Shown: positions 1 through 26,994 of the stretch, piece after piece
Layout of the letters: each line of letters opens with the position of its first letter
Numbering within the stretch: position 1 is the stretch's first letter
The notes under the pieces: generated by a model
What the model was told of the DNA's origin: nothing
Databases searched by the model: none
The model's input: only the letters and a program-made list of their open reading frames with translations
Translations under genes and position numbers: made by a program
NCBI RefSeq assembly: GCF_003334785.1
Contig: NZ_QOWV01000027.1
Length of the DNA: 30,887 bases
Direction: 5' to 3' (one strand)
Source: Escherichia coli
Lineage (GTDB): Bacteria > Pseudomonadota > Gammaproteobacteria > Enterobacterales > Enterobacteriaceae

Positions 1-56
1 TTTCTCTTCAACCGAACCGGCTGTTTGTGTGAAGTGATTCACATCCGCCGTGTCGA

Positions 57-115
57 TGGAGGCGCATTATAGGGAGTTCTCCGCAGGCCGCAATAGAAAA
101 ATTGCAGAAAAATGA
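57..115 (-). promoter_or_regulatory. rRNA-operon P1-type sigma70 promoter with A/T-rich UP element, transcribing leftward out of the window (probably rrnE P1)
   Basis: Minus strand reads TTGCGG(-35, 88..93)-16 nt-TATAAT(-10, 66..71)-GCGCCTCC discriminator, followed by ATCGACACGG; nearly identical to the rrnB P1 core (AACTCCCTATAATGCGCCACCACTGACACGG). A/T-rich tract 94..115 upstream of -35 fits an UP element. GC-rich discriminator is typical of stringently controlled rRNA promoters. Confidence 0.7.
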
Positions 116-264
116 CTGACTGCTGCATTCCCCAGCAAAAGCCCGCTTTATACCTTTTTACGCACAGAGTTATCCACAATCATCAATGTAATTTCTGTAT
201 TTTGCCCACGGTAACCACAGTCAAAATTGTGATCACCATTGAAAGAGAAAAATTCGCGAGCGTT

Positions 265-280
265 GCGCAAACGTTTTCGT
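265..280 (+). promoter_or_regulatory. PurR operator (pur box) upstream of purH, adjacent to a TACAAT -10-like hexamer (281..286)
   Basis: GCGCAAACGTTTTCGT matches the PurR box consensus ACGCAAACGTTTTCNT; purHD is a known PurR regulon member. Confidence 0.6.
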
Positions 281-305
281 TACAATGCGGGCGAAAAATA
301 AGGAT

Positions 306-355
306 GCCCCGTTAGGGGCGTTAGCTGAGTTTTTCGCGAAAAATTCAGCTAACGC
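306..355 (+). repeat. Near-perfect 38-bp palindrome (19-bp arms, 318..355) plus overlapping GC hairpin (306..319) in the purH leader
   Basis: Left arm gcgttagctgagtttttcg versus reverse complement of right arm gcgttagctgaatttttcg: 18/19 match, the single mismatch is a G-U pair in RNA. gccccGTTAggggc lies immediately upstream. Confidence 0.5.
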
Positions 356-387
356 TCTCTGTAATAGTCAAATCCAGGGGATTTACC

Positions 388-1977
388 ATGCAACAACGTC
401 GTCCAGTCCGCCGCGCTCTGCTCAGTGTTTCTGACAAAGCCGGTATCGTCGAATTCGCCCAGGCACTTTCCGCACGCGGTGTGGAGCTGCTGTCTACAGG
501 GGGCACTGCCCGTCTGTTAGCAGAAAAAGGTCTGCCGGTAACCGAAGTTTCCGATTACACCGGTTTCCCGGAGATGATGGATGGACGCGTGAAGACCCTG
601 CATCCGAAAGTACATGGTGGCATTCTGGGCCGTCGCGGCCAGGACGATGCCATTATGGAAGAACATCAGATCCAGCCTATCGATATGGTGGTTGTTAACC
701 TGTATCCGTTCGCCCAGACCGTGGCCCGTGAAGGTTGCTCGCTGGAAGATGCGGTTGAGAACATCGATATCGGCGGCCCAACGATGGTGCGCTCCGCCGC
801 CAAGAACCATAAAGATGTCGCAATCGTGGTGAAGAGCAGCGACTATGACGCCATTATTAAAGAGATGGATGACAACGAAGGATCGCTGACGCTTGCAACC
901 CGTTTCGACCTCGCCATCAAAGCCTTCGAACACACTGCCGCCTACGACAGCATGATTGCCAACTACTTCGGCAGCATGGTTCCGGCTTACCACGGTGAAA
1001 GCAAAGAAGCCGCCGGTCGCTTCCCACGCACGCTGAACCTGAACTTCATTAAGAAGCTGGATATGCGTTACGGCGAGAACAGCCACCAGCAGGCTGCCTT
1101 CTATATAGAAGAGAATGTGAAAGAAGCCTCCGTTGCTACCGCAACCCAGGTTCAGGGTAAAGCCCTCTCTTATAACAACATCGCCGATACCGATGCGGCG
1201 CTGGAGTGCGTGAAAGAGTTCGCCGAGCCGGCATGTGTGATTGTGAAGCACGCCAACCCTTGCGGCGTGGCTATCGGCAATTCCATTCTTGATGCTTACG
1301 ATCGCGCGTACAAAACCGACCCAACCTCCGCATTCGGCGGCATCATTGCCTTTAACCGCGAGCTGGATGCGGAAACCGCACAGGCCATCATTTCTCGTCA
1401 GTTTGTCGAAGTGATTATTGCGCCGTCCGCCAGCGAAGAAGCCCTGAAAATCACCGCCGCCAAACAGAACGTACGCGTTCTGACCTGCGGTCAGTGGGGC
1501 GAGCGTGTTCCGGGCCTCGATTTCAAACGCGTGAACGGCGGTCTGCTGGTTCAGGATCGTGACCTGGGGATGGTCGGTGCGGAAGAACTGCGCGTGGTGA
1601 CCAAACGTCAGCCGAGCGAACAGGAACTGCGTGATGCGCTGTTCTGCTGGAAGGTGGCGAAGTTTGTGAAATCCAACGCTATCGTCTATGCCAAAAACAA
1701 TATGACTATCGGCATTGGCGCGGGCCAGATGAGCCGCGTGTACTCCGCAAAAATCGCCGGTATTAAAGCGGCCGATGAAGGCCTGGAAGTGAAAGGTTCC
1801 TCGATGGCTTCTGACGCGTTCTTCCCGTTCCGCGACGGTATTGATGCCGCCGCCGCTGCGGGCGTGACCTGCGTAATCCAGCCTGGCGGTTCTATCCGTG
1901 ATGACGAAGTGATTGCCGCCGCCGACGAGCACGGTATTGCGATGCTCTTCACCGACATGCGCCACTTCCGCCATTAA
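388..1977 (+). CDS. purH: Bifunctional AICAR transformylase / IMP cyclohydrolase
   Basis: 529 aa ORF, N-terminus [27 protein letters not shown] (MGS-like domain); ATG at 388 with AGGGGA Shine-Dalgarno 7 nt upstream; length identical to E. coli PurH. Confidence 0.97.
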
Positions 1978-11622: not shown

Positions 11623-11648
11623 GCCCCATTTGCGGGGCTAATTTCTTG
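11623..11648 (+). terminator. Possible weak terminator / hairpin after rsd
   Basis: GCCCC-ATTTGC-GGGGC followed by TAATTTCTT; short stem and interrupted U-tract. Confidence 0.3.
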
Positions 11649-11740
11649 TCGGAGTGCCTTAACTGGCTGAGACCGTTTATTCGGGATCCGCGGAACCTGA
11701 TCAGGCTAATACCTGCGAAGGGAACAAGAGTTAATCTGCT
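11640..11740 (+). ncRNA. TPP (thiamine pyrophosphate) riboswitch, thi-box aptamer in the thiC leader
   Basis: Contains the conserved thi-box elements GGAGUGCC ... CUGAGA ... GGAACCUGAUCAGGCUAAUACCUGCGAAGGGAA; located 80-180 nt upstream of thiC ATG; followed by a second hairpin ATCGCC-CCTGC-GGCGAT (11748..11764) plausibly part of the expression platform. Aptamer boundaries approximate. Confidence 0.9.
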
Positions 11741-17432: not shown

Positions 17433-17600
17433 GAAAATAAGAACACATGTTCTCATCTTCCAGGATGCAGCAGACTGAAGAAATTCAGACATCCCGCAAC
17501 CTGCGATTATCGCAAGGTCAAGGCAAAGTCCGGTAATGGCGTTCTGAATACCAGAGATAATTCTCTGGCGAAACCCACCTTAAGGTGGGTTTTGTTATTT
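17433..17600 (+). ncRNA. sroH: Candidate small RNA (SroH-like) in the thiH/htrC convergent spacer, ending at an intrinsic terminator
   Basis: Promoter as above plus terminator AACCCACC-UUAA-GGUGGGUU followed by UUGUUAUUUU (17572..17600) define an approximately 165-nt non-coding transcript; an sRNA named SroH of about this size has been reported between htrC and thiH in E. coli K-12 (recalled from literature, exact coordinates not verified). Confidence 0.55.
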
Positions 17601-26924: not shown

Positions 26925-26955
26925 AAAAAGGCTGGTGACTAAAAAGTCACCAGCC
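26925..26955 (-). terminator. rplL-rpoB intercistronic transcriptional attenuator
   Basis: Minus RNA: GGCUGGUGACU-UUUUA-GUCACCAGCC followed by UUUUUGC, about 40-70 nt after rplL stop; matches the classical partial terminator that sets the r-protein:RNAP ratio. Confidence 0.8.
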
Positions 26956-26994
26956 ATCAGCCTGATTTCTCAGGCTGCAACCGGAAGGGTTGGC

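What the first reader, a model, noticed from the sequence alone, without database searches (positions are those of the whole stretch)
57..260. rrn P1 promoter reads out of the window divergently from purH; their control regions share about 200 bp
A stringent, Fis/UP-dependent rRNA promoter lies 200-300 bp upstream of the PurR-controlled purH promoter on the opposite strand. The A/T-rich tract 94..250 probably contains Fis sites. Close divergent arrangement may couple supercoiling or Fis occupancy to purine biosynthesis expression.
Basis: partly seen in the sequence, partly recalled or inferred. Interest (0 to 1): 0.25.

Follow-up and report, generated by a model that had tools for sequence, protein, structure and literature searches.

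The report
rrnE P1 promoter facing purH promoter

Summary
Window 1-420 is 100% identical to the E. coli K-12 MG1655 rrsE-purH intergenic region. On the minus strand lie rrnE P1's -35 TTGCGG (93..88), a 16-bp spacer, -10 TATAAT (71..66), discriminator GCGCCTCC and +1 at 57. That start is 284 nt before 16S. P2 lies beyond the window edge. The core aligns with the six other K-12 rrn P1 promoters.

On the plus strand, the purHD promoter carries the published PurR operator (265..280) and -10 TACAAT (281..286).

Fis activation of rrnE is documented in the literature. A sequence scan for Fis sites was uninformative. I found no evidence for Fis or supercoiling coupling to purH.

DnaA binding there was shown by ChIP-seq in 2024 and again in 2026.

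New here: across 41 Enterobacterales species the rrn P1, the DnaA boxes and the PurR/purH promoter form a fixed-spacing module. The box lies 109 bp from P1 in 37 of 41 species. It lies about 41 bp from the PurR box, except in the Escherichia/Citrobacter clade, which carries a 53-65 bp unconserved insert (181..247).

Verdict: already known, with low interest. A modest open question remains about what DnaA does at this site.

The parts
57..57 (-). rrnE P1 transcription start (+1 A)
   Evidence: Position by alignment with the six other K-12 rrn P1 promoters. It lies 284 nt upstream of the mature 16S 5' end.
58..65 (-). GC-rich discriminator GCGCCTCC
   Evidence: GCGCC(A/T)CC is present in all seven rrn P1 promoters. 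Conservation is 1.81 bits per column over 41 Enterobacterales.
66..71 (-). rrnE P1 -10 hexamer TATAAT
   Evidence: Invariant in the seven K-12 P1 promoters and in 41 species. The extended motif is unique in the window.
88..93 (-). rrnE P1 -35 hexamer TTGCGG, with a 16-bp spacer (72..87)
   Evidence: Only 3 of 6 positions match TTGACA, which is why the generic promoter scan found nothing.
94..117 (-). UP element region (25% GC) with two ATTTTTCT copies 11 bp apart (113..106 and 102..95)
   Evidence: Composition and the direct repeat D2. The position (-38 to -61) matches the UP elements of the other rrn P1 promoters. Assigning the two copies to the two alpha-CTD subsites is inference from established UP-element architecture.
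122..136 (.). Fis site I candidate GCTGGGGAATGCAGC (minus strand), centred at -72
   Evidence: It is a G-N13-C 15-mer. It sits in the same alignment columns as G-N13-C 15-mers of all six other rrn P1 promoters. It is nearly invariant in 41 species at 1.76 bits per column. That Fis site I of rrnE P1 is centred at -72 is recalled from Aiyar et al. 2002 and was not read here.
148..153 (.). Invariant TTATAC, function unexplained
   Evidence: Conserved in 100% of 41 species at 1.97 bits per column. It matches only the first 6 positions of a relaxed DnaA box and no other site was assigned.
158..166 (+). DnaA box, weaker partner TTACGCACA (7 of 9)
   Evidence: Published as the upstream half of the purH 'double DnaA box'. 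Mutating it abolishes DnaA ChIP signal (PMC11317965). TTnnnCACA is conserved in 41 species.
170..178 (+). DnaA box, perfect TTATCCACA
   Evidence: DnaA ChIP-seq peak at 124-fold over control, with mutational ChIP-qPCR. Binding was seen again in a second ChIP-seq study. It is the only perfect box in the window and scores 1.91 bits per column over 41 species.
181..247 (.). Lineage-specific, unconserved spacer (53-65 bp insert)
   Evidence: Absent from 34 of 41 Enterobacterales. It is present, with unalignable sequence, in Escherichia, Citrobacter, Kluyvera, Pseudocitrobacter and one Enterobacter. It is single copy in E. coli and more variable than its flanks.
248..264 (+). Conserved block upstream of the PurR box (AAAATTCGCGAGCG), the expected -35 zone of the purH promoter
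   Evidence: Conservation. No good -35 hexamer is recognisable, and the assignment is inference.
265..280 (+). PurR operator GCGCAAACGTTTTCGT
   Evidence: It is the reverse complement of the PurR ChIP-chip site listed for purH-purD (PMC3159470). Conservation is 1.84 bits per column.
281..293 (+). purH -10 TACAAT (281..286) plus GC-rich discriminator, with the start inferred near 293
   Evidence: The -10 hexamer scores 1.88 bits per column. The 7 nt after it are 84% GC on average in 41 species, although the sequence itself is not conserved (0.63 bits). The start site is inferred and not taken from data.
306..355 (+). Two hairpins in the purH 5' leader (306..319 and the palindrome 318..355)
   Evidence: -35.6 kcal/mol, z = -4.67; compensatory changes. 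Outside the finding proper.

Best explanation
The locus is the E. coli K-12 rrnE-purHD divergent control region.

On the minus strand, rrnE P1 is a sigma-70 rRNA promoter of the standard P1 design:
- a weak -35 hexamer
- a 16-bp spacer
- a consensus -10 hexamer
- a GC-rich discriminator that makes open complexes short-lived, and hence sensitive to ppGpp/DksA, initiating NTP and supercoiling
- a UP element contacted by alpha-CTD
- Fis bound at about -72 and further upstream

On the plus strand, about 236 bp away, the purHD promoter is repressed by PurR bound to an operator that fills the -35/-10 spacer. The two core promoters do not overlap.

Between them lies a double DnaA box that binds DnaA strongly in vivo. 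P1, the boxes and the purH promoter form a fixed-spacing module across Enterobacterales. E. coli and its near relatives have acquired an unconstrained 53-65 bp spacer between the boxes and the purH promoter.

Shown here or in cited papers: promoter identity, the PurR site, DnaA occupancy, Fis dependence of rrnE, and the conservation and spacing. Inferred: that the two promoters are otherwise regulated independently. Any cross-talk through Fis, supercoiling or DnaA is unproven.
For: -
- P2 lies outside the window.
- The PurR operator equals the published ChIP-chip site.
- Fis: rrnE is the strongest of the seven promoters, the most Fis-dependent, and shows 5 to more than 8 Fis complexes.
- DnaA: ChIP-seq gave 124-fold enrichment. 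Chromosomal box mutants lose binding, and the qPCR amplicon primers map to window 89..210. A second ChIP-seq study confirms binding.
- Conservation: rrn-purH adjacency holds throughout Enterobacterales and is absent in Vibrionaceae, Pasteurellaceae, Aeromonas, Shewanella and others.
- Spacing: the box-to-P1 distance is 109 bp in 37 of 41 species. The box-to-PurR distance is 40-42 bp in 31 of 41, with the exceptions explained.
- Block-wise information content is given.
Against: - The purH start site and -35 hexamer are inferred, not measured.
- The Fis site coordinates for rrnE could not be read, because Hirvonen 2001 and Aiyar 2002 are not held. They also cannot be recovered from the degenerate consensus.
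- The rigid order-wide spacing on both sides of the DnaA boxes argues that the promoters may not be fully independent.
- No regulatory effect of DnaA on either promoter has been measured. Proteomics in datA/DARS mutants showed most of the DnaA regulon unchanged.
Confidence: 0.9

Rival explanations
1. The close divergent arrangement couples the two promoters. The very high transcription from rrnE P1 generates negative supercoils upstream (twin-domain effect), or Fis bound upstream of P1 also acts on purH. Purine synthesis would then track rRNA synthesis.
For: - rrnE is the strongest rrn promoter and the most Fis-dependent.
- The adjacency is conserved across an entire order.
- The purH promoter keeps a GC-rich discriminator (84% GC over 41 species without sequence conservation). 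That is the signature of supercoiling- and ppGpp-sensitive promoters (established knowledge).
Against: - No paper or dataset found links Fis or rrnE activity to purH.
- A shared GC-rich discriminator would give parallel regulation without any physical coupling.
- Three of the seven K-12 rrn operons have divergent neighbours of unrelated function (yieP, yrdA, purH), so divergence as such is not special.
- The segment most likely to hold E. coli's extra upstream Fis sites (181..247) is unconserved and absent in most genera.
Confidence: 0.15
2. [quoted passage not shown] DnaA bound just upstream of the purH promoter activates or represses purine synthesis according to initiator status. rrnE P1 is a bystander.
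For: - In 34 of 41 species (the three box-swapped species included) the boxes sit at about -60 to -80 from the inferred purH start, a classical position for an upstream regulator.
- Other DnaA targets are nucleotide-metabolism genes: nrdA, nrdD and, as reported earlier, guaB.
- The insert lengths in the Escherichia/Citrobacter clade (53-54 and 63-65 bp) are close to 5 and 6 helical turns. That would keep the boxes on the same face relative to purH (weak, with only 2-3 independent events).
Against: - No expression effect has been measured.
- The DnaA regulon was mostly unchanged when the DnaA-ATP level or titration was perturbed.
- In E. coli the boxes are at -115 to -135 from purH, far for a direct contact.
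- Spacing to P1 was never broken in 41 species, whereas spacing to purH was broken in 7.
Confidence: 0.4
3. The double DnaA box belongs functionally to rrnE P1, or to both promoters. It lies at -101 to -121, where rrnB P1 carries Fis site II. DnaA would compete or cooperate with Fis and so tie one rRNA operon, and purine supply, to replication-initiator status.
For: - The box-to-P1 distance is identical (109 bp) in 37 of 41 species. The 3 species at 97 bp have simply swapped the strong and weak box, and 1 species has a 1-bp change.
- Among the seven K-12 rrn upstream regions, only rrnE has such a box pair.
- Fis and DnaA sites are known to co-occur at oriC, DARS2 and nrdA (reference lists seen).
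Against: - No experiment addresses it and no paper mentions it.
- From memory of Hirvonen 2001, sequences upstream of Fis site I contribute little to rrn P1 activity.
- One operon out of seven is a weak lever on total rRNA synthesis.
- The constant spacing could simply reflect the absence of indels in a short, densely constrained segment.
Confidence: 0.15
4. The boxes have no transcriptional role. They are an origin-proximal DnaA titration site, conserved because they help buffer free DnaA.
For: - ChIP occupancy is very high, comparable to polA and above DARS1, mioC and nrdA.
- purH lies in the origin-proximal zone of high DnaA-box density described as a titration region.
- There were no proteome changes for most of the 'DnaA regulon'.
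Against: A pure titration site would not need base-pair-exact spacing to two promoters across an order. The two roles are also not mutually exclusive, as the authors themselves say.
Confidence: 0.2

Closest known systems
E. coli rrnB P1 (the paradigm rRNA P1 promoter) and the other five rrn P1 promoters
   Same: - The same TCCCTATAATGCGCC.CC core.
- A 16-bp spacer.
- A UP element at -38 to -61.
- A G-N13-C Fis site I at about -71/-72.
- A start 284-292 nt before 16S, with P2 about 110-120 bp downstream.
   Different: - The -35 hexamer is TTGCGG instead of TTGTCA.
- The discriminator has T instead of A at one position, and the initial transcribed sequence is shared only with rrnH.
- More Fis complexes form and activity is the highest of the seven.
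- It is the only one with a double DnaA box upstream.
- It is one of three with a divergent neighbour gene.
PurR-repressed pur regulon promoters (purF, purMN, purHD and others)
   Same: A 16-bp palindromic operator matches the published purH-purD site exactly and overlaps the core promoter.
   Different: Nothing differs. This is the purHD promoter itself. The extra features are the DnaA boxes upstream and a structured 5' leader.
'Double DnaA box' sites (polA, nrdA, DARS2, datA, oriR1 region) defined by DnaA ChIP-seq, PMC11317965
   Same: - Two 9-mers in the same orientation with a 3-bp spacer.
- One box is perfect and the other matches 7 of 9.
- The ACAgagTTATCCACA junction is identical to the oriC and datA entries.
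   Different: It sits between an rRNA promoter and a purine gene, and its regulatory output is unknown. The conservation and fixed spacing shown here were not in the papers read.
guaBA and nrdAB promoters (nucleotide-synthesis promoters with Fis and DnaA inputs)
   Same: These are nucleotide-metabolism operons whose upstream regions combine Fis sites and DnaA boxes. guaB also has a UP element, a PurR site and growth-rate control (PMC2885671, abstract; nrd reference).
   Different: At guaB the reported DnaA box was not bound in vivo. Here the Fis sites belong, as far as is known, to the divergent rRNA promoter and not to purH.
Supercoiling-coupled divergent promoters (ilvY-ilvC, leu-500 systems; from general knowledge, not read here)
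   Same: Back-to-back promoters a few hundred bp apart, one of them very active.
   Different: Coupling there is demonstrated experimentally. Here it is only a conjecture.

Membership tests
E. coli-type rrn P1 promoter | Located about 280-300 nt upstream of the mature 16S 5' end, with a second promoter P2 about 110-120 bp downstream | tested here: met
   The +1 at window 57 lies 284 nt before rrsE. P2 (TTGACT-16-TAATAT) starts about 110 nt downstream, just outside the window.
E. coli-type rrn P1 promoter | Consensus -10 TATAAT, a 16-bp spacer and a non-consensus -35 beginning TTG | tested here: met
   TTGCGG-16 bp-TATAAT. The layout is the same in all seven operons.
E. coli-type rrn P1 promoter | GC-rich discriminator GCGCC(A/T)CC between the -10 hexamer and +1 | tested here: met
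   GCGCCTCC at 65..58. It is conserved in 41 species.
E. coli-type rrn P1 promoter | A/T-rich UP element at about -40 to -60 | tested here: met
   Window 94..117 is 25% GC. It holds two ATTTTTCT copies 11 bp apart. Binding by alpha-CTD was not tested.
E. coli-type rrn P1 promoter | Fis site I centred near -71 and further Fis sites upstream, with activation by Fis | tested here: inconclusive
   A conserved G-N13-C 15-mer is centred at -72 and aligns with those of the other six P1 promoters. The literature reports 5 to more than 8 Fis complexes and the largest fis-mutant effect for rrnE. A consensus scan does not rise above chance, and the footprinting papers could not be read.
E. coli-type rrn P1 promoter | Negative control by ppGpp/DksA and dependence on initiating NTP concentration | not testable with these tools
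   Only the sequence correlate (the GC-rich discriminator) can be seen.
PurR operator | A 16-bp imperfect palindrome close to ACGCAAACGTTTGCGT that overlaps a pur promoter and is bound by PurR in vivo | tested here: met
   Window 265..280 is the reverse complement of the site listed for purH-purD in PurR ChIP-chip. Conservation is 1.84 bits per column over 41 species.
Double DnaA box | Two DnaA 9-mers (TTATCCACA-like) in the same orientation, separated by 2-3 bp | tested here: met
   TTACGCACA-gag-TTATCCACA at 158..178.
Double DnaA box | DnaA occupancy in vivo that depends on both boxes and on their spacing | tested here: met
   Not tested by me. Taken from PMC11317965 (ChIP-seq at 124-fold, plus ChIP-qPCR of chromosomal mutants) and confirmed in PMC12926920.
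Supercoiling- or Fis-coupled divergent promoter pair | Activity of one promoter changes when the other promoter, or the shared factor, is removed in cis | not testable with these tools
   No supporting publication was found.

The most novel reading that the evidence does not exclude
The rrn P1 promoter, the double DnaA box and the PurR-controlled purH promoter are one ancient, position-locked tripartite module of Enterobacterales. DnaA occupancy, which reflects replication-initiator status, tunes the adjacent rRNA operon, purine synthesis or both through this module. It may do so by competing or cooperating with Fis at the position where rrnB P1 carries Fis site II. The invariant TTATAC at 148..153 would be part of the same nucleoprotein complex.
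Probability: 0.2. Interest if true: 0.55.

Novelty: already known. Interest (0 to 1): 0.17.

Why it matters
As written, the finding restates textbook E. coli biology. rrnE P1 has been dissected since the 1990s and purHD is a classic PurR target.

The one point that could matter is the DnaA site. DnaA binds here as strongly as at polA. The site is as conserved as the promoters themselves across an entire bacterial order, and nobody has yet measured what it does.

If it modulates an rRNA promoter or purine synthesis, it would be a direct wire from the replication initiator to ribosome and nucleotide supply. The mutant strains needed to test this already exist.

Tried and rejected
- **Generic promoter scan.** The sigma-70 consensus scan of 1..600 returned no promoter. 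The rrnE -35 matches TTGACA at only 3 of 6 positions and purH lacks a recognisable -35. This is a limit of the scanner, not evidence against the promoters.
- **Fis consensus scan.** GNNYRNNWNNYRNNC at 6 or more of 7 positions gave 4 hits in 94..250. That compares with 2.9 +/- 1.6 in shuffles and 2.2 per 100 bp window-wide. It is uninformative. Fis sites had to be taken from the literature.
- **Primary Fis papers.** Attempts to read Hirvonen 2001 failed because it is not held. Aiyar 2002 appeared only in reference lists and has no PMC id. The Fis site positions (-72 for site I) rest on memory and on the alignment.
- **Rfam.** Nothing appeared in 1..450 at gathering threshold. At a permissive E-value there were only a partial Ysr197 match over the P1/leader and two chance hits.
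- **A third DnaA box at 148..156 (TTATACCTT).** It matches only positions 1-6, and the spacing to the next box is 1 bp, which was not tested in the ChIP paper. Left as unexplained.
- **An extra promoter on the minus strand.** The candidate was TGGATA-18-TATAAA, with its -35 inside the DnaA box. I rejected it as unlikely because the -10 lacks the conserved final T, and the scanner does not call it.
- **Insert 181..247 as a mobile repeat.** Rejected. It is single copy per genome.
- **Literature searches.** Searches for rrnE-purH coupling, Fis-purH, rrnE-DnaA and ppGpp-purH found nothing relevant.

Full report
**1. What is there**

Window 1-420 is 100% identical to E. coli K-12 MG1655 and is present in all 5,426 complete E. 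coli genomes searched. 5,419 of them cover at least 80% of it at 95% identity or better.

In the RefSeq annotation the stretch is the unannotated gap between rrsE and purH-purD. rrsE (16S) is followed by tRNA-Glu and 23S, and reads leftwards out of the window. purH-purD reads rightwards. Window position x equals NC_000913.3 coordinate 4207920 - x. The mature 16S 5' end lies 228 bp beyond the left edge.

**2. The rRNA promoter**

Read on the minus strand, the sequence is ...CAGTCATTTTTCTGCAATTTTTCTA TTGCGG CCTGCGGAGAACTCCC TATAAT GCGCCTCC A.... That gives:

| Element | Window coordinates |
|---|---|
| -35 TTGCGG | 93..88 |
| spacer | 16 bp (87..72) |
| -10 TATAAT | 71..66 |
| discriminator GCGCCTCC | 65..58 |
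| +1 A | 57 |

- The +1 lies 284 nt before 16S.
- I fetched the upstream regions of the other six K-12 rrn operons and aligned them. TCCCTATAATGCGCC.CC, the 16-bp spacer and the TTG of the -35 are shared by all seven. The first 20 transcribed bases are identical to rrnH.
- The 18-mer core occurs once in the window, with none expected in 100 shuffles.
- The generic promoter scanner misses it because the -35 matches the consensus at only 3 of 6 positions.
- P2 (TTGACT-16-TAATAT) starts about 110 nt downstream of P1, 18-52 bp outside the window.

It is clearly not met.

**3. Upstream of P1**

- Window 94..117 is 25% GC. It contains two ATTTTTCT copies 11 bp apart on the transcribed-direction strand. 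That is the expected position and layout for a two-subsite UP element (inference from established UP-element architecture).
- At 136..122 the minus strand reads GCTGGGGAATGCAGC, a G-N13-C 15-mer centred at -72. It falls in the same alignment columns as G-N13-C 15-mers in all six other P1 promoters.
- From memory, Aiyar et al. 2002 place Fis site I of rrnE P1 at -72. I could not read that paper or Hirvonen 2001.
- Maeda et al. 2015 (PMC4696680) was readable. It states that rrnE has five Fis sites according to Hirvonen. It gives more than eight complexes in gel shifts and is the strongest of the seven promoters. It drops most, to below 35%, in a fis mutant and is not affected by hns.
- A scan with the degenerate Fis consensus gives 4 hits in 94..250 against 2.9 expected. 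The claim 'probably contains Fis sites' is therefore supported by the literature but not by sequence statistics.
- 'A/T-rich 94..250' is only partly true. GC is 46% in 118..180.

**4. The purH side**

- GCGCAAACGTTTTCGT at 265..280 is the reverse complement of ACGAAAACGTTTGCGC. That is the site listed for purH-purD in the PurR ChIP-chip study (PMC3159470).
- It abuts TACAAT (281..286). A start near 293 is inferred, and no good -35 is visible.
- The start-to-start distance to P1 is therefore about 236 bp.

**5.

- The DnaA ChIP-seq signal there is 124-fold over control. That is equal to polA and above nrdA, mioC and DARS1.
- Chromosomal mutations in either box, or a +1 bp change in spacing, abolish binding.
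- The paper's qPCR primers map to window 89..108 and 191..210.
- A second ChIP-seq study also finds the site (PMC12926920).
- Neither paper measured an effect on purH, and neither considered rrnE P1 as a target.
- Proteomics after perturbing DnaA-ATP or titration left most of the DnaA regulon unchanged (PMC12371093).
- I found no paper linking rrnE with a DnaA box.
- Among the seven K-12 rrn upstream regions, only rrnE has such a pair.
- It is the only perfect box in the 30.9-kb window.

**6. Comparative analysis (new here)**

A PurH-based scan of one genome per species returned 80 loci.

- Among the Enterobacterales loci, all but a few have a contig that ends 150-670 bp upstream of purH. Three (Pantoea sp. 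IMH, Tatumella, Ca. Hartigia) run on through the full 3-kb flank. A contig end there is the signature of a collapsed rrn repeat.
- The divergent P1 core, or the 16S 27F site, is found where the sequence reaches that far.
- Vibrionaceae, Pasteurellaceae, Aeromonas, Shewanella, Pseudoalteromonas and Orbaceae, with full 3-kb flanks, have neither.

In the 41 species where both P1 and the PurR box are on the contig:

| Distance measured | Result |
|---|---|
| Perfect box start to P1 -10 block | 109 bp in 37 species |
| | 97 bp in Tatumella and two Rosenbergiella, where the perfect and imperfect boxes have swapped places |
| | 108 bp in Proteus |
| Box start to PurR box | 40-42 bp in 31 species |
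| | 53 bp in the three swapped species |
| | 94-106 bp in E. coli, E. albertii, Pseudocitrobacter, Kluyvera, two Citrobacter and one Enterobacter |

The last group carries a 53-65 bp insert at window 181..247 whose sequence is not alignable between genera. In E. coli that insert is single copy and more variable than its flanks.

Information content per column over the 41 species:

| Block | Bits per column |
|---|---|
| P1 -10 and discriminator | 1.81 |
| P1 -35 | 1.47 |
| UP element | 1.04 |
| Fis-I 15-mer | 1.76 |
| TTATAC (148..153) | 1.97 |
| Weaker DnaA box | 1.48 |
| Perfect DnaA box | 1.91 |
| PurR box | 1.84 |
| purH -10 | 1.88 |
| Linkers | 0.6-1.1 |

The ancestral unit is thus a compact module of about 150 bp from the P1 -10 to the PurR box. 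In it the DnaA boxes lie at about -60 to -80 from purH and at -101 to -121 from P1.

**7. Reading the mechanism**

What is shown:
- promoter identities
- PurR, DnaA and Fis binding (from the literature)
- strong purifying selection on each element and on their spacing

What is inferred:
- The two core promoters do not overlap and have their own regulators, so independent regulation is the default.

- In its favour are the order-wide adjacency and the fact that the purH discriminator stays 84% GC without sequence conservation. That predicts the same sign of response to ppGpp and supercoiling as rrn P1.
- However, this gives parallel control without any physical coupling.
- Three of the seven rrn operons have divergent neighbours of unrelated function.
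- No supporting publication was found.

For the DnaA boxes, three readings compete:
- a purH regulator (the authors' view, favoured by the ancestral -60 to -80 position)
- an rrnE P1 or shared regulator (favoured by the never-broken spacing to P1 and by lying where rrnB P1 has Fis site II)
- a titration site

None is tested.

**8. Verdict**

The finding is real and correctly located. It describes a long-known promoter pair, so novelty is 'already known' and interest is low.

Identity, Fis and PurR are right. The size of the 'shared' region and the coupling are not supported. The key shared element, the DnaA boxes, was overlooked.

The residual value is the conserved tripartite module and the unexplained invariant TTATAC. 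Both are cheaply testable with strains that already exist.

Noticed in passing
window 158..178 (+): A double DnaA box, TTACGCACA-gag-TTATCCACA, lies between the two promoters. DnaA binding in vivo is published (2024, 2026) but its regulatory effect is unknown. The pair is conserved in all 41 Enterobacterales examined, and its spacing to rrn P1 is fixed in 37 of them.
   Followed up: yes
window 148..153: The hexamer TTATAC is 100% invariant across 41 Enterobacterales species, more conserved than the -35 or the UP element. I could assign no known site. It might be a partial third DnaA box or the core of a Fis site.
   Followed up: partly
window 181..247: A 53-65 bp insert lies between the DnaA boxes and the purH promoter. 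It occurs only in Escherichia, Citrobacter, Kluyvera, Pseudocitrobacter and one Enterobacter, and is unalignable between genera. The lengths are close to 5 or 6 helical turns. It is single copy in E. coli, found by megablast in 4,858 of 5,426 genomes, and more variable than its flanks. It holds a GATC-centred palindrome, AATTGTGATCACCATT (225..240).
   Followed up: partly
window 306..355 and 358..382 (+): The purH 5' leader folds into two adjacent hairpins. They are GCCCC-GUUA-GGGGC and a 21-bp-arm palindrome whose base GUUAGCUGA/UCAGCUAAC is conserved while its top varies in length. The fold is -35.6 kcal/mol with z = -4.67. 5 of 23 pairs show compensatory changes in 20 Enterobacteriaceae. 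A third predicted helix pairs CUCU with the Shine-Dalgarno GGGG. There is no Rfam family. On the minus strand the first hairpin followed by a T-run looks like a terminator facing rrnE.
   Followed up: partly
window 287..293 (+): The 7 nt after the purH -10 are GC-rich in every species (mean 84% GC over 41 species), although the sequence itself is not conserved (0.63 bits per column). This suggests selection for a stringent-type discriminator at the purH promoter.
   Followed up: partly
NC_000913.3 loci L002-L008: Of the seven K-12 rrn operons, three have a divergently transcribed upstream neighbour (rrnE-purH, rrnC-yieP, rrnD-yrdA). Four have a co-directional one (hemG, murI, clpB, gmhB).
   Followed up: no
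window ~46 (-), i.e. 4207874: An RNase III-dependent RNA end is listed as 'Intergenic (purH-rrsE)' at 4207874 in PMC5371410. If the coordinate is in the .3 numbering, it lies about 11 nt into the P1 transcript. I did not check the genome version.
   Followed up: no
window 11640..11740 (+), 17433..17593 (+), 26929..26990 (-): Rfam matches at gathering threshold elsewhere in the window are the TPP riboswitch, sroH sRNA and P26. They are unrelated to this finding.
   Followed up: no
literature, PMC11317965 Table 1: The table says its coordinates are NC_000913.2. However, 4207740 fits the box position only in NC_000913.3 numbering (window ~180). The PurR paper's older coordinates for the same region are 1,977 lower.
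   Followed up: partly
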